Shown: piece after piece, positions 1,522 to 15,553 of the stretch | Layout: each line of letters opens with the position of its first letter | Position numbering within the stretch: the first letter of the stretch is position 1 | NCBI GenBank assembly: GCA_021498095.1 | Contig: JAIZWK010000001.1 | Coordinates: 3,060,001-3,092,000 of the forward strand | Direction: 5' to 3' | DNA length: 32,000 bases | Origin: Candidatus Harpocratesius repetitus | GTDB lineage: Archaea; Asgardarchaeota; Lokiarchaeia; Sigyniarchaeales; Promethearchaeaceae | Notes under the pieces: generated by a model | Databases searched by the model: none | What the model was told of the DNA's origin: nothing | Seen by the model: the letters and a program-made list of their open reading frames with translations, nothing else | Made by a program: the position numbers and the translations under genes

Positions 1522-1977
1522 TTAGTTTGGACTGATATTATCTAAATCTGACAAATCCAAACCTAAATCCATATCATCGGGCATCTCACTTAAAAATTCA
1601 TCTAAGATACTCCGTAATTCCTCGCCCGAACGTTTCAAAACCAAACGAATTAAGCCCAAATTCACATCTACATCAGAAATCAGACACAAAACACCTCTCA
1701 TTCCTGTTGCACAAGCAAATATTTTTCCTTGATCAAATTCACTTGTAACTATTTGGAGGGCACCAAGTTCTAAATTTCGCCCTTGTTCTTCAGATGCACA
1801 GAAAACGGCTGATGCAATGGCACCAATTCCATCTGCATCAACAGGTATGTAAGAAAATTTGGAAACATGTGCAATAGTTAAACCAGTTCGATCAACTAGG
1901 ATAACCTTTTTGATTCCAGATTCGGATTTGATAATTTTACTAAGGATATCATTAAATGATTTTGTGGATAATGACAT
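1522..1977 (-). CDS. Roadblock/LC7 (MglB/LAMTOR2-like) protein with acidic C-terminal tail
   Basis: VILVDRTGLTIA, GIGAIASAVFCASEEQGRNLELGALQIVTSEFDQGKIF and LGLIRLVLKR match the Roadblock fold pattern; tail EMPDDMDLGLDLSDLD. Confidence 0.85.
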   Translation of the reverse strand: MSLSTKSFNDILSKIIKSESGIKKVILVDRTGLTIAHVSKFSYIPVDADGIGAIASAVFCASEEQGRNLELGALQIVTSEFDQGKIFACATGMRGVLCLISDVDVNLGLIRLVLKRSGEELRSILDEFLSEMPDDMDLGLDLSDLDNISPN

Positions 1978-2226: not shown

Positions 2227-4986
2227 ATGATCAAGCAAGCAAAAATTTTTGTAAACAGAAGTATATTTATATTTTTTTTGAGTATTTTGATATGGATGAT
2301 AATGAACAGAAAAAATCAGTTCATTCTGAGGCGTATTTTCTTGGGATTTTTTACTTTTTTAATTTTATATTCGAGTCTAGCATATATAAGTGAAAAAAGT
2401 GTTGTCTGCCCCTCAGATTACTCAAGAAATTCCTTAATAAAGAAAGAAATAGAATTTCCTTATCATTTACCACTAAAGATTTCAAATATAAGCCCTAATT
2501 TTATAGGTACATCCGTTTTTAATAGAAATAAAAAAGAATCAAGCGCATTTATGAATTTTGTAGAATCTAATACTAAAAATCAAAGTTTATCAATACGTGT
2601 AGGATATTATGAGAATTCTCCAAAAATTTATAAAGATAAAGAAAAAGGAATAACAGGCTTTTTCCCAGATTTATTAACATACATTGCATCACAAGAAAAT
2701 TGGAATATTATTTATGTAGAAGGATCTTGGAGTGAAGGTTTGGCTCGATTAAACTCAAGTGAGATCGACATTATGCCTGATGTAGGATATTCAGCAGAAC
2801 GAGACAAAATATATGATTTTAATAATATTTCTGCGATTACAAGCTGGGCTAGAATTTATACACTAGAAAAATCAGATATTGAGTCAATAATTGATTTAGA
2901 GCAAAAACGAATTGCCGTAATGCGTGATGATATTGATTATATAGGACCAATGGGCATCAAGCAGTTAACAAATGATTATTCGATTAATTGTACCTATATT
3001 GAGTTTTCTAATTATACTGAAGTATTTGAAGCCATTGAAAAAAAATCCGTAGATGCAGGGGTAATAAATGAACTATATGGAAACAGAAATGGTTATCGCT
3101 ATGCTGTGACAAAAACGCAAATTGTTTTTAGTCCTGTAAACTTTCATTTTGGATTTCCAAAAAATGCTACATTAAATCAAATTTTAATCAATAAAATCGA
3201 CTATTGGTTAAATAAATTGAAAAATGATCCACATTCATTTTATTATGAGAAATACCAAGAATATTTTGCCGAAATACCTCCAAAATCTGTGACGTTTCCG
3301 TATTGGATTCTTTATATTGCTTTAGGATTAAGTGGAGCGGTAATCTTTTTCGGGGGAACAACCATTTTTCTACGTTATCAAGTGTCTAAACGGACGAAAG
3401 AATTACATGAAAGTGAAACACGATTTCGATCTGTAATCGATTCGATGAAAGAATGGATTTGGGAAATTGACAAGAATGGAATATTTATATATGTCGGGCC
3501 ACAGATTTTCGATGTTTTAGGTTACCATCATGATGAAATTTTAGGAAAACCATTTTCATTTCTTCTTCCTAAAAAAATCAATAAAAATACAGAAGAAATA
3601 AATAATAATGATGAAGATGAGAGGTTATATTCATCAGATTCATTAATTGAAATGCTGTATGCTGGTTCTAAACCAAAATCAATTAATAATTTAGAGCATA
3701 TAAAAATCCATAAAAATGGTCAACGTCGAATTGTAGAATCAACAATTATCCCGTTATATGACAGACGTAAAAATTTCATAGGATTTCGTGGAATTGATCG
3801 CGATATCACAGAATTAAGAAAAACACAAGAATTTTTTCTTCAATCTCAAAAAATGAAAGCAATTGGACAATTAGCTGCAGGTATCGCTCATGAATTTAAC
3901 AATATCATGACAATAATTTTGGGTTTTACAAGCTTATTAAAAGATGATATTTCTAAGAAAACTCATGATGAATATATCCATGAAATATCTCTTGCTGGAA
4001 ACCAAGCAGCAGCATTAACAAAACAATTATTATCGTTTAGTAAAAAATATTCAAAATCAACAATCTCCATTGATATCAATGAAATCATCAAATCTATGGA
4101 GTTAATGATCAAAAAATTAGTTGGAGAAAAGATATTAATAATAATTAAATATCAGGAAAATATTTCTCAATTTTTAGGAGAAGTCCAAAAAATTCAACAA
4201 ATAATATTAAATCTGGTTATTAATGCCCGAGATGCAATGCCGAATGGAGGAATTTTATCCATTGAAAGTAGCGAAATTACTAAAAATAAAGAAAAAGTGG
4301 CATTAAATCCAAAATATGAGAAGTATATAAAAATTAATATTACAGATACAGGAAAAGGAATGTCGAAAGAGCAATTAACTCATATTTTTGAACCCTTCTA
4401 TACAACCAAGCCAAAAGGCAAAGGAACCGGCTTAGGAATGTATATTGTGTATGGTATTGTCCAACAATTTAATGGAACAATAGATATTTGTTCTAAAATT
4501 GGTAAAGGGACTAGGATTTCTTTATATTTTCCTTCCATCAATCAGAAAACAAACAAAATCATTACTACTCATCAAGAACTAAAAGATATTTCTGGAAAAG
4601 AGAGAATTCTATTAGTTGAAGATGATCCAAAATTATGTTCTTTAATTGAGAAAATTCTATTAGATTTTGGATATCAAGTAAGGAGCTTCATTCGTCCTCG
4701 AGATGCACTACAAGTATTTGAGTCATATCAAGAGAATTCAACAAATCATGAGGTTCAATTTGATCTAATTATTACAGATATTGTTATGCCTGAATTAAGT
4801 GGAAATGAAATGATCGACTTAATTTATAAAAAGTTTACTTATATCCCAGTAATTTATATCTCCGGATATTCAAAACACTCAAAATTTATTCAATCTATAT
4901 TAAATGATGGAACACATTTTCTCAAGAAGCCATTTACTCCTTATGAAATTGGTGCGAAAATTCGACAAGTCTTAGATAATAATTGA
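2227..4986 (+). CDS. Membrane hybrid sensor histidine kinase: TM, extracellular solute-binding (family 3-like) domain, TM, PAS/PAC, HisKA, HATPase_c, receiver
   Basis: SBP-like IRVGYYENSP...GFFPDLL...SWSEGLARL; TM YWILYIALGLSGAVIFFGG; PAS IWEIDKNG...LGYHHDEILGK; H-box AGIAHEFNN; N-box NLVINARDAM; G1 DTGKGM; F FEPFYTTK; G2 GTGLGM; receiver LLVEDD, TDIVMP, KKPF. The true start may be a later Met (MNRKNQF). Confidence 0.93.
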   Translation: MIKQAKIFVNRSIFIFFLSILIWMIMNRKNQFILRRIFLGFFTFLILYSSLAYISEKSVVCPSDYSRNSLIKKEIEFPYHLPLKISNISPNFIGTSVFNRNKKESSAFMNFVESNTKNQSLSIRVGYYENSPKIYKDKEKGITGFFPDLLTYIASQENWNIIYVEGSWSEGLARLNSSEIDIMPDVGYSAERDKIYDFNNISAITSWARIYTLEKSDIESIIDLEQKRIAVMRDDIDYIGPMGIKQLTNDYSINCTYIEFSNYTEVFEAIEKKSVDAGVINELYGNRNGYRYAVTKTQIVFSPVNFHFGFPKNATLNQILINKIDYWLNKLKNDPHSFYYEKYQEYFAEIPPKSVTFPYWILYIALGLSGAVIFFGGTTIFLRYQVSKRTKELHESETRFRSVIDSMKEWIWEIDKNGIFIYVGPQIFDVLGYHHDEILGKPFSFLLPKKINKNTEEINNNDEDERLYSSDSLIEMLYAGSKPKSINNLEHIKIHKNGQRRIVESTIIPLYDRRKNFIGFRGIDRDITELRKTQEFFLQSQKMKAIGQLAAGIAHEFNNIMTIILGFTSLLKDDISKKTHDEYIHEISLAGNQAAALTKQLLSFSKKYSKSTISIDINEIIKSMELMIKKLVGEKILIIIKYQENISQFLGEVQKIQQIILNLVINARDAMPNGGILSIESSEITKNKEKVALNPKYEKYIKINITDTGKGMSKEQLTHIFEPFYTTKPKGKGTGLGMYIVYGIVQQFNGTIDICSKIGKGTRISLYFPSINQKTNKIITTHQELKDISGKERILLVEDDPKLCSLIEKILLDFGYQVRSFIRPRDALQVFESYQENSTNHEVQFDLIITDIVMPELSGNEMIDLIYKKFTYIPVIYISGYSKHSKFIQSILNDGTHFLKKPFTPYEIGAKIRQVLDNN

Positions 4987-8116: not shown

Positions 8117-8506
8117 TTAAAACATCAATTGAATATCTGAATTTGTCGCAATCTCAACTAAATCTCCCATAGAACCGATTGTTACAAAATCTAAAAGGAT
8201 ATCTGTCGTAATTCCCCGCTTTTCACAACAAATTCCACAAGCAATAATTTTACCGCCTTCTTCATTGATATTTTTAAGCCATGTTTGCATATTTGGCCCT
8301 TCTTTTGGATCTTGACCTTTAATTGCTAAGGTTACTGCTGCACCTAAAAGAAAAACATTTACAATATGTTCTTGAACAAGGGCAGTTAAAGCAAAACGCA
8401 AACCAGAAAAACTTTTTTCGCTAGTATAAGCATCTTCAGTTATTATTATATAAAACCTCTTTTGTTTATTTTCACTCAATTTTTTTTCAACCCTTTCTTT
8501 TCTCAT
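8117..8506 (-). CDS. DsrE-family sulfur-relay protein, YchN-like, with CxxCC
   Basis: EDAYTSEKSFSGLRFA, VFLLGAAV, GQDPKEGPNMQTWL and ACGICCEKRGI follow the YchN/DsrE pattern. Confidence 0.85.
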   Translation of the reverse strand: MRKERVEKKLSENKQKRFYIIITEDAYTSEKSFSGLRFALTALVQEHIVNVFLLGAAVTLAIKGQDPKEGPNMQTWLKNINEEGGKIIACGICCEKRGITTDILLDFVTIGSMGDLVEIATNSDIQLMF

Positions 8507-8582: not shown

Positions 8583-8819
8583 TTATTTTACACATTCAAA
8601 ATAGAGAAACCATCCTTCATCTTCATCATTTTCTTCTTTTCCTAAGAATTTATGCTTTGTTTTGGCTAAATCTCTTGGAACACTTTCTACTGCGGGTTCA
8701 TAGTCAAGAATTACTTTTAATACTTGCCCAGGACTCATTTTAAGCAGTTTTTTCTTCGTTTTCAAAGCAGGCATGGGACAAACCAAGCCACATACATCCA
8801 GTTCTTCATCATAATCCAT
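8583..8819 (-). CDS. tusA: TusA-family sulfur carrier (copy 1, in the hdr operon)
   Basis: LDVCGLVCPMP (CPxP motif), PGQVLKVILDYEPAVESVP; Shine-Dalgarno-like GAGGT upstream. Confidence 0.9.
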   Translation of the reverse strand: MDYDEELDVCGLVCPMPALKTKKKLLKMSPGQVLKVILDYEPAVESVPRDLAKTKHKFLGKEENDEDEGWFLYFECVK

Positions 8820-8863: not shown

Positions 8864-9292
8864 TTATGTTGTTTTTAAAAAAATAGGATCTCTTTGGTTT
8901 GGAAGAATTTGAAATTCAACTTGATTTAATTCAACTAACCGCAGAGCTTCAAATCTCACTTTTATTGTGGATAAACCTAATAGGTCTGCTATTTTTGGAA
9001 TGGTGCTCTTAGGGTGTTCTTCAATAACTTTTAACACTTTTTCACGTGTGTTTAAAAAGTTTTCAGGATCTTTCTTTTTCCCTCGACGCACCATAGGACA
9101 GCTATTATAACAATTTCCACAAGCTAGACCAATTGTAGTCATAATACATTTCCCTTTTAGAAGTGGGGTTTTTTTTTTCTTCTCATTGACTGTTTCACTC
9201 ATTTCAATGTGTTTACATGATTTTGCACAAATCCCACAACCAATGCATTGATTTGTATCAATAATTTTAGTTTTTAAAAGTTCAAAGCTCAT
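8864..9292 (-). CDS. 2x[4Fe-4S] ferredoxin-like domain fused to a C-terminal winged-helix (HTH) domain
   Basis: CIGCGICAKSC and C...CGNCYNSCP; the N-terminus resembles the ferredoxin module of FrhB/FpoF-like proteins. C-terminal REKVLKVIEEHPKSTIPKIADLLGLSTIKVRFEALRLVELNQV is wHTH-like. Start overlaps the preceding gene by 11 nt. Confidence 0.7.
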   Translation of the reverse strand: MSFELLKTKIIDTNQCIGCGICAKSCKHIEMSETVNEKKKKTPLLKGKCIMTTIGLACGNCYNSCPMVRRGKKKDPENFLNTREKVLKVIEEHPKSTIPKIADLLGLSTIKVRFEALRLVELNQVEFQILPNQRDPIFLKTT

Positions 9293-10574
9293 AATTTTTA
9301 CTCTCCCAATTAGTTATTATACCTCGTGAATCGAGGGTAAATGTTACATTCTTTGAAGAAGAAGTATATGTTCCTTCTTGAATTGGTATAGGATGAGCCC
9401 GAAAATTATCAAAATTCTTAAAAGAATCCAATTTAATTTTCATGCCTCCAAAGTAGAGATTAGACAAATTCATGTTACCTGCTAATTTTCTGATATTTTC
9501 CGTGCTCTCAGCATACAAATTTGGATCCATATTTTCACATGCCAACTTGTATTTCTTTTCCAATTCTAATAGTTGTTCCCTTATTGTCTTTAACTCATTA
9601 TCTAATTCCAATTTAATACCCTTTTCATAAGCATCAAGGATATCAATAGTCATTGAAATGAAACTTTTTCCACCCATCATTCCTGTAATAAGCGGCAATT
9701 CTTCAATCGGTCGTCCAACCATAATATCTGCAATAATATTTCCAGAAGATGGTATTTTACCAGGTGGAATCGGTGAATTTGCCAAAGTAAATCGGAAAAA
9801 GGTACCAACCACATCAGAATAGGCACTTGAAATTTCATCTTCTTCATCAGCTAGCTTATCGGTAGCACCTTTTGAAGATGCTTCAGTGGCAACATCCATT
9901 TGACCCATGAGGGTTCCCATCATTCCAAGCATACGAATTGATGAATCGTCAATAAAGGGATTGCAACCTCGACATGGAGTTCCAAAATCAATACAACGCT
10001 CTTGACAATTATTTGCAATATATCCTGAACATGTATATCCAACATCATTAAAACATTGTTTTTCATCAAGCTCTTGAAGATCGATTTGATGGACAATTTC
10101 TTCTAAGAAGGAACAAGTTGATTCTCTTGGACATTTTTCACATAGTTTTTCAGATTGAAATTGATTATAATCTTTCAATAATGCTAAAAGATGATCACCA
10201 GAGGCTAAGCATCCCCTTATTTCTTGATCTACAGAAATAATTTTAGATATTGGAAAAATTTCTATCCCTTTTTGATATGCTAATCCAAAAATTCCTCCGT
10301 CAGTCGCACAAGATCCAAAAGTAAAAACTTGATTAGCAATTTTTCGAATTTCTTGTAAACAATGAAGATTTTCTGAAGTAGCATATCCTGAGAAAATCGC
10401 AATATCTATTGATGAAGGAAGATTATATTCATCTGTACACCAAATTAACTTCACATCTGTTTCTTCTTCATAATCTTTAACATTACGAACGATTAATTCT
10501 GGATTCCCAATCAGATTAATAATTTCGTTGCGACATTTTGTGCATCCATTTAATTGAAATATTCCAATTTTCAT
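9282..10574 (-). CDS. mvhG: MvhG-like hydrogenase small subunit (3 Fe-S clusters) fused to a degenerate MvhA-like fragment lacking Ni ligands
   Basis: GCTKC, GSCATDGGIFGL, RGC, LCEKCPR, CFNDVGYTC, CQERC, PCRGC and DVVGTFFRFTL align with MvhG (aa 1-272). aa 273-430 contain GRPIEELPLI, as in MvhA just before the L1 motif, but no CxxC. Confidence 0.8.
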   Translation of the reverse strand: MKIGIFQLNGCTKCRNEIINLIGNPELIVRNVKDYEEETDVKLIWCTDEYNLPSSIDIAIFSGYATSENLHCLQEIRKIANQVFTFGSCATDGGIFGLAYQKGIEIFPISKIISVDQEIRGCLASGDHLLALLKDYNQFQSEKLCEKCPRESTCSFLEEIVHQIDLQELDEKQCFNDVGYTCSGYIANNCQERCIDFGTPCRGCNPFIDDSSIRMLGMMGTLMGQMDVATEASSKGATDKLADEEDEISSAYSDVVGTFFRFTLANSPIPPGKIPSSGNIIADIMVGRPIEELPLITGMMGGKSFISMTIDILDAYEKGIKLELDNELKTIREQLLELEKKYKLACENMDPNLYAESTENIRKLAGNMNLSNLYFGGMKIKLDSFKNFDNFRAHPIPIQEGTYTSSSKNVTFTLDSRGIITNWESKNYEL

Positions 10575-10990
10575 TGCTTCAAAACTCCTTTATTTTCAAT
10601 AGCTTGTTTTAATTTTTCCAAAATATCTTCGAAATCACCTACAGCAGTTTCTCCTTCAGCGGCTCGAGCCGTATATTGGTTTAAAATTAACTCGCTGTAA
10701 CCCATTTCTTTGATAAATTTTTTGAGCAATTTCACACGGCGCAAAGAGACCAAATTACCATTGAAGAAATGGCAGGCACCAAAACAACAACCAATTACAG
10801 CAACGGAATCTGCTCCATTTTTATATGCATCCATGATTTGAATAGGGCCAACTTGGCCTGCACATTTTACTCGAATTATCTTAATTGAAGTATCATATTG
10901 CATTCGAGCAACTCCAGCAGTATTTGCTGCCCCTTGACCACATTCAGCACACATAAAGCAAACAACATTCTTTTTTGTTTTTGTTTCCAT
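10571..10990 (-). CDS. mvhD: MvhD/FlpD [2Fe-2S] adaptor subunit (Cys form)
   Basis: FMCAEC...ANTAGVARMQY...IIRVKCAG...GADSVAVIGCCFGACHF.NGN; stop overlaps the next start (ATGA). Confidence 0.92.
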   Translation of the reverse strand: METKTKKNVVCFMCAECGQGAANTAGVARMQYDTSIKIIRVKCAGQVGPIQIMDAYKNGADSVAVIGCCFGACHFFNGNLVSLRRVKLLKKFIKEMGYSELILNQYTARAAEGETAVGDFEDILEKLKQAIENKGVLKQ

Positions 10991-10998
10991 TATAATAT

Positions 10999-12999
10999 TT
11001 ACACCCCTTTTTCTAAGATTGGATGCGCCACGGCTTCAATTTCATCTCTTAGTTGTTCTTCTCTATAATTTATCACTTGAATCGCATGTGTTGGACAAGC
11101 AGGCATGCAAATTCCACAGCCTTTGCACCCAACTTCATTTACAACAGGTTTACCATTTTCCCATAAAATTGCTGAAGGTGAACATGCAGTGATGCATGCA
11201 CGACATTTTGTACAAAGATCATAGTCAATTTTTGCAATTATCATCTCTTTTTCTATATATCCTTTTACCAAAGAAGAAACTGCTCCAACAGCAGCTGCAC
11301 TTCCTTGGGCTACTGATTGGGTTATATCTTTTGGTCCTTGAATTGCACCAGCAATAAATATTCCATCTCGACTTGATCTTGTTGGATCCATTTTAATATG
11401 GAATTCTTTAATAAACCCTTCTTTCCCACGAAGCAATTGCAGTCGTGAACCTAATAAACCAACACCTTTTGGGGCAACCATTGCTGCTGAAAGAATTACC
11501 AAATCTGCATGTAATTCCATAGGTTCTGCCATAAAAGTATCTTCAACGTAGACTTTCAAACAATCATTTTCCGGATCTGCCTCAATTTCAGATGGTCTTC
11601 CACGAATGAAGAGTACCCCTTTCTTTTGACATGCTTTATAATATTCTTCATAATATAAACCAGGTGTTCGTATATCAATATAACAAATATATACGTTTGA
11701 ATCTGGATAAGTATCTTTTATAATACCAGCATTTTTAATTGCAAACATGCAACAAACACCTGTACAATATTCATTGCCAACTAATTCATTCCTTGATCCA
11801 ACACATTGAATTATGACTACATTTTTTGGAATCCTTCCATCAGATGGTCTCAATAGTTGACCTCCAGTAAGAGATGTTGGACCCATCATTCTTTCAAATT
11901 GGAGTTGAGTTATTATATTCTCATAACCCGGTATTTTGTAATGATAAGCTTCTATTTCACTGGGATCATATTCTTCATATCCTGTAGCAACAATAATTGA
12001 TCCGACTTTGATTTTAGTTTTACTCTTCTTAAGTGAAAAATCTATTGCATTTACGGGACAAGTCTCAACGCAACGCCCACAATCAATACAATTCTTTCGA
12101 TCAACTACAAATGTTGAAGGAATTGCTTGAGGATATAATTTATAAATTGCCTTTCTAATTCCCATCCCAGAATCCCATTCTGCAGGTAATTCAACCGGAC
12201 ATACACTTGCACATTCTCCACATGAAGTACAATTAGACTTTACATATCGCGGTTTGGTTGTGATTGTGACTGTAAAATTTCCTATACTTCCATCTACAGA
12301 ACTAACTATTGAATTTGTAAATAATGTCACATTTTCATGAGTTGCTACTGCATTCGTAAGTGGTGAAATACTACATTGAGGGCATTCATTTGTTGGAAAT
12401 GTTTTATTTAATTGAGTCATATGTCCACCAATACTTGATTCTCGTTCAACTAAATATACCGGAATTCCTGAATCAGCTGTATCTCGAGCGGCTCTAAGTC
12501 CAGCAATGCCTCCACCAATGACCAATACTGCTTTGGTAATTTGAATTTTCTGTGTTCTAACTTCTTCTAATGTTCGAGCCCGATTAACTCCTGCTTTAAC
12601 TAGTTGTTTTGCTTTTTCAGTGGCTTCAACATGATCTTTTTGATGAACCCAACTATCATGTTCTCGAATATTAACTTGTTGATGAAGATGTTTATTTAAT
12701 CCGACTTCAGAAATTGCACGAGCAAAAGTAGGTCCGTGCTGCGTTTTAGAACAAGAAGCCACCACAGTTCTGGTTAAATTATATTCTTTCACTGCATTTT
12801 TTATTAATTCAATACCTTGTTTAGAGCACATAAACATATTATCTGTAGAAAATTCAACATTTGGAAGAGTTTTTGCATATTCAGCAACTGCTTTTACATC
12901 GACAACATCAGCAATATTATGCCCACAGTGACAAACGAAAACTCCAATACGTTCATTACTTTTCGGATTGTTTTTTTTGTCTTTCTCTTTTTCGACCAT
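10999..12999 (-). CDS. hdrA: Heterodisulfide reductase subunit A (FAD, Fe-S), methanogen-type, Cys form
   Basis: IGVFVCHCG, NIREHDSWVH, VIGGGIAG, KTFPTNECPQC, two inserted CxxCxxCxxxCP, QFERM, CVGSR...YCTGVCCMFAIKNA, GPKDI, C-terminal 2x[4Fe-4S]. Confidence 0.97.
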   Translation of the reverse strand: MVEKEKDKKNNPKSNERIGVFVCHCGHNIADVVDVKAVAEYAKTLPNVEFSTDNMFMCSKQGIELIKNAVKEYNLTRTVVASCSKTQHGPTFARAISEVGLNKHLHQQVNIREHDSWVHQKDHVEATEKAKQLVKAGVNRARTLEEVRTQKIQITKAVLVIGGGIAGLRAARDTADSGIPVYLVERESSIGGHMTQLNKTFPTNECPQCSISPLTNAVATHENVTLFTNSIVSSVDGSIGNFTVTITTKPRYVKSNCTSCGECASVCPVELPAEWDSGMGIRKAIYKLYPQAIPSTFVVDRKNCIDCGRCVETCPVNAIDFSLKKSKTKIKVGSIIVATGYEEYDPSEIEAYHYKIPGYENIITQLQFERMMGPTSLTGGQLLRPSDGRIPKNVVIIQCVGSRNELVGNEYCTGVCCMFAIKNAGIIKDTYPDSNVYICYIDIRTPGLYYEEYYKACQKKGVLFIRGRPSEIEADPENDCLKVYVEDTFMAEPMELHADLVILSAAMVAPKGVGLLGSRLQLLRGKEGFIKEFHIKMDPTRSSRDGIFIAGAIQGPKDITQSVAQGSAAAVGAVSSLVKGYIEKEMIIAKIDYDLCTKCRACITACSPSAILWENGKPVVNEVGCKGCGICMPACPTHAIQVINYREEQLRDEIEAVAHPILEKGV

Positions 13000-13001
13000 T
13001 T

Positions 13002-13955
13002 TTACCCAGCCCCTTCAATAGATTTTTCCTTTATCGATACTTTCTCCATAGGTTCCTTTAATTCTTTAAATTGATAATCTTTTCCATGGGCTTGATATTG
13101 TAAGCCTATTTTCTCCATATCCATTCCCATACACCATGCAGTTAATTGAGACATATGTATTACAGGAATATCAAAATTAGTTCCATAAATTTCGTTTACA
13201 GTAGTTTGGCCACCATCAAATTGTAATTGGCAAAATGGACATGTATCAAAAATAAAATCCGGATTAGCTGCCTGCATATGACCTAATTTTTCTTTCAAAA
13301 TCTTCATAGATGTATTTTTATCAAAGCTAAGAACACCTCCACCTGCACCACAACATGTTAATTTTTGAGCAAAATCAACAGATTTAACACCTAAGGCTTC
13401 GACATATTCCTCCAGAAAGGTTGGAATTTCAGGTGAAGCAAGTTGGCGAATTCTAGAAGGTTTTAAAAGATGGCATCCATAATGAACAGCAGCTCTTGCC
13501 TCTGCTTTTCGAACAATGTATTTCTGAATTTCAGTGGGTCCTACTTCAAAACCGAGAATTTCGGCAATGTGGCGGACTCGAATTGTTCCTTTCCATTGAT
13601 AATCACCCATTTCTTTTAATTTTTCATTAACTTTTGCAGCCATCTCTGGATCAGATTTTAGATGCTTATTTACATCAATTAAAGTTCCAAAGCAACCATT
13701 ACATACGGTTAAAATGTCTGCGTCGTTCTTTTCAGCAATCGCAATATTGCGTGCAGCTGCAACCATCCAATCACTTTTATCAAAAGAACGAAAAACCCCA
13801 GGAGCTGGACAACATGTTGCACGTTCCATTTCCATAAGCGTAAAACCTAATTTTTTCATAACAAACCGGGTTGCAGATTCAATTTGCGGGTAACGATTAG
13901 GCATAATGCATCCTAAAAAGAATGAAAATGTATTTTCTTTTACCATTTCTTTCAC
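13002..13955 (-). CDS. hdrB: Heterodisulfide reductase subunit B (two CCG domains)
   Basis: FLGCIMPNRYP, TCCPAPG, VCNGCFGTL, HYGCHLLKP, TCCGAGGG, CPFCQLQFD. Confidence 0.97.
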   Translation of the reverse strand: MKEMVKENTFSFFLGCIMPNRYPQIESATRFVMKKLGFTLMEMERATCCPAPGVFRSFDKSDWMVAAARNIAIAEKNDADILTVCNGCFGTLIDVNKHLKSDPEMAAKVNEKLKEMGDYQWKGTIRVRHIAEILGFEVGPTEIQKYIVRKAEARAAVHYGCHLLKPSRIRQLASPEIPTFLEEYVEALGVKSVDFAQKLTCCGAGGGVLSFDKNTSMKILKEKLGHMQAANPDFIFDTCPFCQLQFDGGQTTVNEIYGTNFDIPVIHMSQLTAWCMGMDMEKIGLQYQAHGKDYQFKELKEPMEKVSIKEKSIEGAG

Positions 13956-14070: not shown

Positions 14071-14661
14071 TTAACTTAATTTTTCAAAACCATCCAAATT
14101 TTTTCTGGAATTTGCTTTTCTTTCTTTATATTCCTTACCTCTTTCAACAACTCTGAAAAGTTTATGGAAAGGGATAATTTCAGAATTTTCTTCATCGCGA
14201 TATTTATATAATGTTGGTGGAATCGGATCCAATCCTAAGGCTTCTCTTTGCCTTATAATTTTATCATTTATCGGAACCGCATGCCCTGTTGATCGCAGAT
14301 AACCAACAACTGCGGTATGATTAGGACTCATATTCCCAATTTCACTGGCATAATTTCTTAAATCTATTATTACGTCAGTTGGACGAACATCACGTGGACA
14401 ACGTTCATAGCAATTGTAACATGTAGTACAAAGCCAAATGTCTGGATCTTCTAAGACAGATAGATCGCCCAAAGCAGCTTTTCTAACAATTTGCCGTGTA
14501 CGGATAGCAGTCCAACGCCCACTCTCACAAGAAGCTGTACAAGTGCCACATTGAATACAAGAAAAAATATTACTCCTCCGAGCAATATTTTCAAAAAATT
14601 GAGGGTCAAAATCCTCTAATTTTTTATATTTTCGCTTAATTGATATTTCACTTTCAGTCAT
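14071..14661 (-). CDS. hdrC: Heterodisulfide reductase subunit C
   Basis: CIQCGTCTASC and WLCTTCYNCYERCPRDV; TGHAVP. Confidence 0.95.
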   Translation of the reverse strand: MTESEISIKRKYKKLEDFDPQFFENIARRSNIFSCIQCGTCTASCESGRWTAIRTRQIVRKAALGDLSVLEDPDIWLCTTCYNCYERCPRDVRPTDVIIDLRNYASEIGNMSPNHTAVVGYLRSTGHAVPINDKIIRQREALGLDPIPPTLYKYRDEENSEIIPFHKLFRVVERGKEYKERKANSRKNLDGFEKLS

Positions 14662-15007: not shown

Positions 15008-15553
15008 TCAAGGAATTGATATCCTTATATCTTCTTTAACACATTGCAACACAACTTGTGTGTGAATTTCTTCGATGCCTGGAATAAATTTCACTTTTTC
15101 CAATAATTGAATTTGATCCTCTTTTTCAATACATTTTGCCATACAAAATATTGAATAATTTCCAGAAATCTGGTATATTGAATTAATTTTCTCAATTTCA
15201 ATTAATTTATTAAAAATATCTTGAATTGGAATAACATTGTTTACCCGAATTGAGAGTAACAACATTTCTTTATATCCAATCTTGCAACAATCAATTAATG
15301 CAGAATAAGCTTTAATTACACCAGTTTCAGTCAATTTATCTACATGATTTTTTATTGTTGAAACAGATGAATTCAATTTTTTGGCAATTTTTCGAAATGA
15401 AGCTTTTCCATCTTCTTGTAAAATTTGAAGGATCTTTTTATCTATATCACTCAATTCAATTTCTTTATGCATTAGTGATGAATTTTTTATATTGTTTGAG
15501 TTAACTGATTTTTGGACATTATTCAAAATCGGTTCACGAGGCATAATTTTCAC
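15008..15553 (-). CDS. Lrp/AsnC-family transcriptional regulator with five Cys
   Basis: LSDIDKKILQILQEDGKASFRKIAKKLNSSVSTIKNHVDKLTETGVI (HTH) and a RAM-like domain (YQISGNYSIF). The true start may be M28. Confidence 0.9.
   Translation of the reverse strand: MKIMPREPILNNVQKSVNSNNIKNSSLMHKEIELSDIDKKILQILQEDGKASFRKIAKKLNSSVSTIKNHVDKLTETGVIKAYSALIDCCKIGYKEMLLLSIRVNNVIPIQDIFNKLIEIEKINSIYQISGNYSIFCMAKCIEKEDQIQLLEKVKFIPGIEEIHTQVVLQCVKEDIRISIP

What the first reader, a model, noticed from the sequence alone, without database searches (positions are those of the whole stretch)
8864..9292. Ferredoxin-winged-helix fusion translationally coupled to the MvhG fusion
Seen: eight Cys in two ferredoxin-type motifs (the first ends CK rather than CP), a basic linker (RRGKKK), then a wHTH-like domain; 11-nt overlap with mvhG'. 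Inference: either an Fe-S redox-sensing transcription factor reading the state of the Hdr complex, or the electron partner replacing MvhA, with the HTH tethering it to nucleic acid or protein. It is one of two candidates for binding the shared promoter element.
Basis: partly seen in the sequence, partly recalled or inferred. Interest (0 to 1): 0.65.

Follow-up and report, generated by a model that had tools for sequence, protein, structure and literature searches.

The report
Stripped-down ferredoxin subunit of Asgard Hdr
This small iron-sulfur protein with a winged-helix tail is real and conserved, but it is most likely a cut-down subunit of an Asgard archaeal heterodisulfide-reductase (Hdr) complex, left after the roughly 680-residue enzyme core between its two ends was lost, and not a redox-sensing transcription factor.

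Summary
ORF 8864-9292 (-) encodes 142 aa with eight Cys in two ferredoxin motifs, a basic linker and a confidently predicted winged helix (wH). It overlaps mvhG' by 11 nt.

The new result is its origin. In all 18 related Asgard genomes that carry mvhG', the gene directly downstream (called X here) starts with this ferredoxin domain. In the about 20 such genes read in full, X also ends with this wH. Usually about 820 aa lie between the two ends: an FrhB-type flavin module carrying an NfnB/GltD-like NAD(P)H module. Some genomes have only FrhB there (about 385 aa). The target is a rare core-less form. About ten divergent lineages of it exist, and nine of them sit in the same hdrCBA-mvhD-mvhG'-X-tusA context.

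A tree of the adjacent mvhG' rejects a single origin of the short-form loci (AU p 4e-164), so the core was lost repeatedly. The short gene is under purifying selection (dN/dS 0.09).

Best reading (about 0.6): an Fe-S wire and docking subunit of the Hdr complex that now depends on an external electron donor. A transcription-factor role is unlikely (about 0.12). The wH is shared with the 820-aa enzyme forms, where it is acidic to neutral with an acidic wing, and a conserved Lrp/AsnC regulator sits in the cluster. No binding was shown.

The parts
8864..9292 (-). The whole gene, called X-min here: a 142-aa ferredoxin plus winged-helix protein
   Evidence: ORF list; homologues; dN/dS 0.09
9095..9292 (-). 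N-terminal 2x[4Fe-4S]-type ferredoxin domain (residues 1-66). It carries a Lys-rich loop (residues 32-48) between the two Cys motifs.
   Evidence: Pfam Fer4 families above cut-off. A profile of the family matches the N-terminal ferredoxin domain of Fsr (7npa/7np8 residues 7-64, E 4e-9) and of the FrhB-like chain 8rja_E. It is 46% identical to residues 1-86 of the 821-aa form.
9047..9094 (-). Basic helical linker (residues 67-82, MVRRGKKKDPENFLNT). This is the junction where relatives carry the roughly 685-residue catalytic core.
   Evidence: Pairwise alignment to the 821-aa form: query 1-91 against 1-86 and query 83-138 against 760-815. AF2 helices 66-74 and 76-79.
8864..9046 (-). C-terminal winged helix (residues 83-142 plus the stop). 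Conserved residues are R83, T97-I98, R113-F114, L117-R118-L119 and P136-x-F138.
   Evidence: AF2 model; Foldseek; 46% identity to the last 56 residues of the 821-aa form; alignment
9282..9292 (-). 11-nt overlap of the mvhG' stop with the X start (translational coupling). An SD-like GGGAGAG lies at 9301-9307.
   Evidence: Sequence. The same 11-nt overlap is seen in L043, L059 and L060. In the other loci the two genes are joined by 1-14-nt overlaps or gaps of 0-2 nt.
9282..10574 (-). mvhG': a full MvhG-like small subunit (residues 1-276) plus a 150-aa tail
   Evidence: Pfam Oxidored_q6. PDB MvhG chains 9sw2_E and 5odc_E. The tail has no PDB sequence match.
10571..10990 (-). mvhD
   Evidence: Pfam FlpD, 2.8e-31
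10999..12999 (-). hdrA
   Evidence: Pfam FAD and Fer4 domains
13002..13955 (-). hdrB
   Evidence: Pfam CCG x2
14071..14661 (-). hdrC
   Evidence: Pfam Fer4_8 and Fer4_17
8583..8819 (-). tusA, conserved directly downstream of X
   Evidence: Pfam TusA. The same position is seen in L011, L012, L021-24, L026, L029, L042, L043, L059 and L060.
8117..8506 (-). dsrE-like gene
   Evidence: Pfam DsrE
15008..15553 (-). Lrp/AsnC-type regulator, the better candidate for the cluster's transcription factor
   Evidence: Pfam HTH_24 and HTH_AsnC. A regulator of the same kind sits between dsrE2 and hdrC in L026.

Best explanation
The gene encodes the minimal, core-less version of the sixth subunit (X) of an Asgard HdrCBA-MvhD-MvhG'-X complex whose operon is embedded in TusA/DsrE sulfur-relay genes.

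Shown:
- X always starts with this 2x[4Fe-4S] ferredoxin domain and ends with this winged helix.
- Most Asgard genomes carry an FrhB-type flavin module between the two ends, split by an NfnB/GltD-like NAD(P)H module (about 820 aa). Some carry FrhB alone (about 385 aa).
- In this genome and about ten other lineages the whole core is missing. The two ends are joined in frame and kept under purifying selection.
- Loci with the short form do not form one clade, so the core was removed several times.

Inferred:
- The ferredoxin domain is the wire that in Fsr-type and FrhB-type enzymes links the flavin site to the partner enzyme. Here it would plug into the Fe-S chain MvhG' -> MvhD -> HdrA FAD -> HdrCB.
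- The winged helix is a protein-docking module, not a DNA reader.
- Without its own dehydrogenase, X-min cannot oxidise NAD(P)H or F420H2. It would act as an Fe-S entry port that takes electrons from a diffusible carrier, most likely ferredoxin, or from an unlinked oxidoreductase.
- The shift of short forms to positive charge would suit docking of an acidic ferredoxin. In the target it sits in a Lys-rich loop of the ferredoxin domain and in the linker.
For: - Architecture and homology: target residues 1-91 and 83-138 align with residues 1-86 and 760-815 of an 821-aa protein at 46% identity. That protein has Fd + FrhB_N + Fer4_20 + Pyr_redox_2 + FrhB_C, and its insert matches NfnB/NfnI chains at 1e-63 to 5e-85.
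- Intermediate form: 380-390-aa Fd-FrhB-wH proteins occupy the same operon slot.
- Position: the X match starts within about 25 nt of the end of mvhG' in 18 of 18 related genomes that have mvhG'. Four genomes without X also gave no mvhG' match.
- Short-form context: mvhG' lies upstream and/or tusA downstream for P0001-P0006, P0008, P0009 and P0011.
- Repeated loss: on the mvhG' tree (412 columns) the short-form loci are not one clade (AU p 4.5e-164; at least 3 changes forced by well-supported branches). The P0006 locus is sister to a long-form locus with 100/99 support. X's own tree agrees.
- Direction of change: distant FrhB-wH proteins (P0016, P0029) keep the core.
- Selection: dN/dS is 0.086 overall, 0.095 for the Fd part and 0.075 for linker plus wH, against 0.071 for mvhG'. 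All 8 Cys are kept in 9 of 10 short lineages.
- Wire role: the family profile hits the N-terminal ferredoxin domains of Fsr (E 4e-9) and 8rja_E. 8rja comes from the F420-reducing CODH/Fwd complexes of ethane oxidisers (PMC11493965).
- Charge: short forms carry +4 to +10, except the recently derived P0006 at -1. The long-form end domains carry -4 to 0 (Fd) and -5 to +1 (wH).
Against: - No physical evidence shows that X-min sits in the complex.
- The winged-helix fold is the one used by many DNA-binding regulators, and HTH_24 similarity is detectable, though weak.
- The short forms' basic charge would also suit nucleic-acid binding.
- One short-form copy (P0007) lies outside any hdr context and has lost a Cys.
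- No external electron donor is identified. The genome's stand-alone NfnAB-like pair and FrhB paralogue are unlinked.
- The tree argument assumes that mvhG' and X are inherited together. Allele exchange by recombination, in place of independent deletions, is not excluded.
Confidence: 0.6

Rival explanations
1. X-min is an Fe-S redox-sensing transcription factor, or an autoregulator in the manner of a trigger enzyme. The two clusters report the redox state, and the winged helix binds the shared promoter or leader element of the sulfur/hdr operons.
For: The winged-helix fold most resembles MarR, ArsR and Zalpha domains. There is a weak HTH_24 match (P0016 reaches 22.6 bits). The short forms are net basic with a basic linker. 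Three Arg residues (R83, R113, R118) are conserved in the wH. JGI annotates some long forms as 'predicted transcriptional regulator' in addition to oxidoreductase.
Against: The same wH, with the same conserved residues, ends the 385-aa and 820-aa enzyme forms, where it carries -5 to +1 net charge and an acidic wing such as E-E-P-M-F. In the target the wH proper is only +2, and the basic residues sit in the ferredoxin loop and the linker. Tight translational coupling inside a structural operon is universal. No dimerisation domain is evident. A conserved Lrp/AsnC regulator is already in the cluster. HTH_24 reaches E 0.01 in only 4 of 26 wH-bearing rows.
Confidence: 0.12
2. X-min is a structural cap only. 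It is kept because MvhG' or the complex needs the two end domains for folding, assembly or shielding of an exposed cluster, and no electrons enter through it. Electrons would reach HdrA by another route.
For: Both end domains are retained after every core loss, and they are translationally coupled to mvhG'. No donor module is linked to the operon.
Against: All eight cluster ligands are conserved under strong purifying selection. That is not needed for a mere cap, though Fe-S clusters can be structural. The MvhG' Fe-S chain would then have no input.
Confidence: 0.15
3. X-min is a decaying remnant of a deleted gene with no function of its own.
For: It arose by loss of the catalytic core. One orphan copy (P0007) has lost a Cys and its operon context. 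Against the 96%-identical orthologue there are 5 non-synonymous and 2 synonymous differences, too few to interpret.
Against: dN/dS is 0.09 over dS of about 1.1, equal to that of mvhG'. The short form persists down to 36% identity with intact motifs and unchanged context. It arose and was kept in several lineages.
Confidence: 0.05

Closest known systems
Asgard 812-830-aa 'FAD-dependent oxidoreductase' encoded after mvhG' (for example the Promethearchaeum syntrophicum MK-D1 protein next to DSAG12_01149, and the Lokiarchaeum ossiferum orthologue)
   Same: It occupies the same operon slot and has the same N-terminal ferredoxin domain (about 46-54% identity) and the same C-terminal winged helix (about 46%).
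   Different: The target lacks the roughly 685-residue FrhB plus NfnB/GltD-like core, so it has no flavin or nicotinamide site. Its ferredoxin domain carries an extra Lys-rich loop, and the protein is net basic.
FrhB/FdhB-family F420-oxidoreductase modules with an N-terminal ferredoxin domain: the Fsr N-terminal half (7NP8/7NPA) and the F420-reductase subunit of CODH/Fwd in ethane oxidisers (8RJA/8RIU, PMC11493965)
   Same: The ferredoxin domain is homologous (profile E 4e-9 to 3e-5) and lies at the very N-terminus, where it wires the flavin module to a partner enzyme. The wiring role comes from the cited structures and from my own knowledge.
   Different: The target has no FrhB_N or FrhB_C domains. 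Its first motif ends CK, not CP. It has an added winged helix, which did not appear in the sequence alignments to the solved chains.
MvhB polyferredoxin, encoded last in methanogen mvhDGAB operons (own knowledge)
   Same: It is an all-Fe-S protein encoded right after the Mvh structural genes and is assumed to pass electrons to or from the Mvh/Hdr complex.
   Different: MvhB has twelve [4Fe-4S] motifs and no winged helix. The target has two motifs and derives from an FrhB-type subunit. The relationship was not tested by sequence here.
Fe-S winged-helix regulators of the Rrf2 family (IscR, NsrR, RsrR) (own knowledge)
   Same: They combine a winged helix with Cys-ligated Fe-S.
   Different: In Rrf2 proteins the wHTH is N-terminal and a single cluster is bound by 3-4 C-terminal ligands of a dimer. 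There was no Rrf2 Pfam match. The target has the domains in the reverse order and a two-cluster ferredoxin fold.
NfnB-like insertions in HdrA of ANME-1 (PMC9012536)
   Same: This is a precedent for an NfnB module inserted in frame into an Fe-S domain of an Hdr-associated protein, as in the long form of X.
   Different: There the insertion is in HdrA, not in an FrhB-type subunit. It concerns the long form of X, not the target.

Membership tests
2x[4Fe-4S] ferredoxin domain (Pfam Fer4 clan) | Two Cys motifs of the CxxCxxCxxxC(P) type giving eight ligands | tested here: met
   C16/19/22/26 form a canonical motif followed by K. C49/58/61/65 form a variant, C-x8-C-x2-C-x3-CP. The ligands are conserved in the long, mid and 9 of 10 short forms.
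2x[4Fe-4S] ferredoxin domain (Pfam Fer4 clan) | Profile score above the curated cut-off | tested here: met
   Fer4_8 30.6/27, Fer4_6 27.9/25, Fer4_10 27.2/25.5, Fer4_2 25.2/24.5, Fer4 23.7/21.1
2x[4Fe-4S] ferredoxin domain (Pfam Fer4 clan) | Actually binds two cubane clusters | not testable with these tools
   Needs reconstitution, UV-vis and EPR
FrhB/FdhB family (F420 hydrogenase/dehydrogenase beta) | FrhB_FdhB_N and FrhB_FdhB_C domains (flavin/F420 site) | tested here: not met
   Neither domain is found in the target. Both are present in the 380-390-aa and 820-aa forms in the same slot. The target is a derivative of the family, not a member.
Asgard X subunit (unnamed family: the gene after mvhG') | Start abuts or overlaps the end of mvhG' in an hdrCBA-mvhD-mvhG' operon | tested here: met
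   11-nt overlap. The position holds in 18 of 18 related genomes that have mvhG'.
Asgard X subunit (unnamed family: the gene after mvhG') | N-terminal MSFxLL...CxGCGxC...CKH ferredoxin domain and C-terminal (V/I)R(Y/F)xALRL...EPxF winged helix | tested here: met
   Alignments
Winged-helix DNA-binding transcription factors (MarR, ArsR, Lrp HTH_24 types) | Winged-helix fold | tested here: met
   AF2 H82-92, H98-105, H109-121, E125-128, E137-140 at pLDDT about 90. Foldseek hits to MarR, SmtB, Zalpha and PapI.
Winged-helix DNA-binding transcription factors (MarR, ArsR, Lrp HTH_24 types) | Profile score above the curated cut-off for a DNA-binding HTH family | tested here: not met
   HTH_24 18.0 bits against a cut-off of 21.9. 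Only 4 of 26 wH-bearing rows reach E 0.01.
Winged-helix DNA-binding transcription factors (MarR, ArsR, Lrp HTH_24 types) | Basic recognition helix and wing; dimerisation element | tested here: inconclusive
   R113 and R118 are conserved in helix 3. However, the wing is acidic in most family members, the long-form wH net charge is -5 to +1, and the target wH proper is +2. No dimerisation domain was recognised.
Winged-helix DNA-binding transcription factors (MarR, ArsR, Lrp HTH_24 types) | Sequence-specific DNA binding | not testable with these tools
   Needs EMSA or DAP-seq
Rrf2-type Fe-S regulators | Rrf2 profile match with an N-terminal wHTH followed by Cys ligands | tested here: not met
   No Rrf2 hit at E 0.1, and the domain order is reversed

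The most novel reading that the evidence does not exclude
After losing its enzyme core, X-min was recruited as a new kind of regulator. It would be a two-cluster ferredoxin fused to a winged helix that binds DNA or the leader RNA of the hdr/sulfur operons according to its redox or assembly state. The long forms would then be trigger enzymes. This would be an Fe-S sensor class unrelated to Rrf2, FNR, SoxR or Wbl proteins.
Probability: 0.1. Interest if true: 0.8.

Novelty: new variant of a known kind. Interest (0 to 1): 0.5.

Why it matters
Asgard archaea are the closest known relatives of eukaryotes, and their syntrophic electron disposal is central to models of eukaryogenesis. This work shows three things:

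- A widespread Asgard Hdr-MvhD-MvhG' complex has no hydrogenase large subunit. In its place it has a modular input subunit with constant ferredoxin and winged-helix ends.
- The usual input module combines an FrhB-type flavin module with an NfnB-like NAD(P)H module.
- Some lineages, including this complete genome, threw the input module away several times yet kept the two ends under selection.

This gives a natural experiment for asking what feeds these complexes, what the end domains bind, and whether the core-less complexes are ferredoxin-driven persulfide or disulfide reductases. It also corrects a tempting mis-annotation as an Fe-S transcription factor.

Tried and rejected
- Complex prediction of MvhG' (alignment A3) with X-min (alignment A2) gave no verdict (ipSAE 0.00 in two runs, controls not run). 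It counts neither for nor against binding.
- The ESM Atlas feature search gave only a generic Fer4 cluster at 0.86 and was not informative.
- I tested the hypothesis that the core was lost because the organism lost F420, and rejected it. The genome has CofE (F420 ligase, E 1e-58) and another FrhB paralogue.
- I looked for a long or mid form of X elsewhere in this genome and found none. There is only a stand-alone NfnAB/SudAB-like pair and an unrelated FrhB with a C-terminal ferredoxin domain.
- The AU test on X's own 136-column tree did not formally reject a single origin of the short forms (p 0.078). The claim of repeated loss therefore rests on the mvhG' tree together with the concordant placements.
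- A PDB sequence search of the MvhG' tail (residues 270-430) gave nothing below E 0.5.
- Literature searches for the MK-D1 locus tags, and for Asgard with FrhB/Hdr/TusA, found no description of this subunit. Only open-access full text was searched.
- The 145-aa ORF in G012 looked like a second short form. It is in fact the N-terminal piece of a split paralogue, followed by a 639-aa NfnB-FrhB_C gene.

Full report
**1. The observation**

The minus-strand ORF 8864-9292 encodes 142 aa. It has eight Cys. C16/19/22/26 form a canonical CxxCxxCxxxC motif followed by Lys. C49/58/61/65 form a C-x8-C-x2-C-x3-CP motif. The linker MVRRGKKKDPENFLNT follows.

Several Pfam Fer4 families score above their cut-offs. 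HTH_24 scores just below its cut-off, at residues 82-112. An AlphaFold2 model built on a 38-row alignment has mean pLDDT 83.5. Its last 60 residues fold as three helices and a two-stranded wing at about pLDDT 90. Foldseek's best PDB matches are MarR, SmtB, Zalpha and PapI winged helices (E about 2e-3; TM by target up to 0.85).

The ATG (9292-9290) lies inside the last codons of the upstream 430-aa gene, whose TGA is at 9284-9282. The upstream protein aligns over residues 1-276 with solved MvhG chains.

**2. The surroundings**

The gene sits in a co-oriented row:
- hdrC (14071-14661)
- hdrB (13002-13955)
- hdrA (10999-12999)
- mvhD (10571-10990)
- mvhG' (9282-10574)
- X (8864-9292)
- tusA (8583-8819)
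- dsrE (8117-8506)

Upstream lie an Lrp/AsnC regulator (15008-15553), dsrE2, a ThiF-like E1, a second tusA, an IscS-like desulfurase and dsrEFH-like genes.

The genome is a 4.36-Mb single contig of an Asgard archaeon. It belongs to the same family as Promethearchaeum syntrophicum MK-D1 (G011) and Lokiarchaeum ossiferum (G010).

**3. What the protein derives from**

A six-frame search of 40 related genomes gave an unexpected pattern. Residues 1-90 of the target matched the start, and residues 72-138 matched the end, of one open frame of about 820 aa.

In those genomes the frame lies exactly where the target lies, directly after mvhG' in hdrC-hdrB-hdrA-mvhD-mvhG'. Pfam reads it as:
- ferredoxin (residues 1-70)
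- FrhB_FdhB_N
- Fer4_20 plus Pyr_redox_2
- FrhB_FdhB_C
- a C-terminal stretch of about 60 residues

The inserted part matches NfnB/NfnI chains at 1e-63 to 5e-85, and the flanks match FrhB-type chains. BLASTP aligns target 1-91 with residues 1-86 and target 83-138 with residues 760-815, each at 46% identity.

A third form of 380-390 aa (ferredoxin, FrhB_N, FrhB_C, winged helix) occupies the same slot in G025 and in a metagenomic contig.

The slot after mvhG' therefore holds one subunit family, called X here. It has constant ends and a variable middle: an FrhB plus NfnB-like core, FrhB alone, or nothing.

The long form is the common one. The best 120 clusters in a 5.8-billion-protein search are all 806-830 aa, from Loki-, Thor-, Heimdall-, Hod-, Odin- and Hermod-type bins. 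They are annotated merely as 'FAD-dependent oxidoreductase' or 'glutamate synthase beta-like'.

The short form is rare. An exhaustive HMMER scan of 1.8 billion representatives found about ten clusters of 133-149 aa, at 36-83% identity.

**4. Is the short form functional, and did it arise once?**

*Context.* mvhG' lies directly upstream and/or tusA directly downstream for P0001 to P0006, P0008, P0009 and P0011. Only P0007 sits in an unrelated context, and it has also lost one Cys.

*Selection.* Against the 83%-identical orthologue, dN/dS is 0.086 at dS of about 1.1. It is the same in the ferredoxin part (0.095) and in the linker plus wH part (0.075), and it matches mvhG' (0.071).

*Phylogeny of X.* A tree of the two end domains places P0006 beside the long form of G009 (97/88). 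It places P0007 with the long form of G007 and the mid form P0013. The target falls in a well-supported clade of five short forms. On those 136 columns the AU test does not reject a single origin (p 0.078).

*Phylogeny of the neighbour.* The adjacent mvhG' gives 412 columns. There the short-form loci are not one clade (AU p 4.5e-164), and well-supported branches force at least three changes. The P0006 locus is sister to G009's long-form locus (100/99), and the G025 mid form is nested among long forms.

*Direction.* Distant FrhB-wH proteins (P0016, P0029) have the core, and the N-terminal ferredoxin domain is a feature of FrhB/Fsr-type proteins. The direction is therefore loss of the core. Recombinational exchange of alleles, in place of independent deletions, is not excluded. 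Either way, selection repeatedly kept the two ends without the middle.

**5. Co-occurrence**

mvhG' is present in 18 of 41 related genomes. In all 18, the X match begins within about 25 nt of its end. Genomes without X, including the two of the same genus (87% and 92% complete), gave no mvhG' match with this query.

**6. How it most likely works**

In Fsr and in the F420-reducing CODH/Fwd complexes, the homologous N-terminal ferredoxin domain links the FrhB flavin to the partner enzyme (PMC11493965; the wiring role in Fsr is from my own knowledge). In MvhADG-HdrABC, electrons run MvhA -> MvhG clusters -> MvhD -> HdrA FAD (own knowledge of the 5ODC structure; the sequence match is).

I infer that long-form X feeds NAD(P)H-derived or deazaflavin-derived electrons through its N-terminal clusters into MvhG'. 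X-min keeps only that wire. It cannot oxidise a hydride donor itself, so it needs a diffusible or unlinked donor.

The short forms have shifted to a net charge of +4 to +10, except the recently derived P0006 at -1. The long-form end domains carry -4 to 0 (Fd) and -5 to +1 (wH). In the target the extra positive charge sits in a Lys-rich loop inserted in the ferredoxin domain and in the linker. The wH proper is only +2. This would suit docking of an acidic ferredoxin, but it would also suit nucleic acid.

I could not assign the partner of the wH. Three points argue for a protein-docking role:
- It is constant across the enzyme and core-less forms.
- It has invariant R83, R113-F/Y114, L117-R118-L119 and P136-x-F138.
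- It has a mostly acidic wing.

These points do not prove that role.

**7. The transcription-factor reading**

This reading would have to hold for the 820-aa enzyme as well, making it a trigger enzyme. The following count against it:
- the acidic long-form wH
- weak HTH profile scores
- universal translational coupling inside the structural operon
- a conserved Lrp/AsnC gene between dsrE2 and hdrC, both here and in a distant locus

It is not excluded, and I give it about 0.12.

**8. Known or new**

I found no description of this subunit in open-access full text. The MK-D1 paper mentions only MvhADG-HdrABC in general terms. The parts are all known kinds: ferredoxin, FrhB, NfnB and winged helix. 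NfnB insertions into Hdr proteins have a precedent in ANME-1.

The new points are the bookend architecture of X, its strict pairing with an MvhA-less MvhG', and the repeated in-frame loss of the whole catalytic core. I rate it a new variant of a known kind, of moderate interest.

**9. Limits**

- No binding, cofactor or activity was measured.
- The one complex prediction returned no verdict.
- Many metagenomic contigs are short.
- The tree-based count of losses assumes that mvhG' and X share a history.

Noticed in passing
L011:3653-4090 (-) and L011:1647-3566 (-) (G012 contig C357): Downstream of the long-form X and tusA, this genome carries a second copy of X that is split in two. One ORF of 145 aa starts with the N-terminal ferredoxin domain. 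The other, of 639 aa, holds Fer4_20, Pyr_redox_2 and FrhB_C.
   Followed up: partly
L025:1086-1493 (P0007): An orphan short-form copy lies outside any hdr/mvh context. One cluster ligand is replaced (CGNS where the family has CGNC). It is sister to the long form of G007.
   Followed up: partly
window 9282-9758 (MvhG' residues 277-430): The 150-aa tail fused to MvhG has no sequence match in the PDB (best E 0.5). It is highly conserved, with many invariant residues across 46 homologues. The family has about 295 clusters at E<1e-10 across Asgard bins, mostly annotated as hypothetical.
   Followed up: partly
G000:C1:3155960-3156328 (-), outside the window: One of five MvhD/FlpD-like matches in this genome has two in-frame TGA codons. 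It could be a selenocysteine gene or a pseudogene.
   Followed up: no
L047:3422-6603 (G000:C1:311421-314602): A stand-alone NfnAB/SudAB-like pair (298 aa with DHODB_Fe-S_bind, and 488 aa with Fer4_20 plus Pyr_redox_2) lies next to a Ras/Roc-family small GTPase gene.
   Followed up: no
window 2227-4986 (+) and 1522-1977 (-): There is a hybrid histidine kinase with a periplasmic-type solute-binding domain, PAS, HisKA/HATPase and a receiver domain. A Roadblock/LC7 protein gene lies nearby.
   Followed up: no
L029:3144-5474: In one short-form locus (P0011), an NfnA/SudB-like and a GltD/NfnB-like gene lie about 2.6 kb downstream, after dsrEFH. They could be an in-trans NAD(P)H module for a core-less X.
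   Followed up: no
P0013 (335 aa) and P0020 (345 aa): These mid-size X proteins have a shortened FrhB core. In P0013, FrhB_N is no longer detected by Pfam. This suggests stepwise erosion as well as clean deletions.
   Followed up: no
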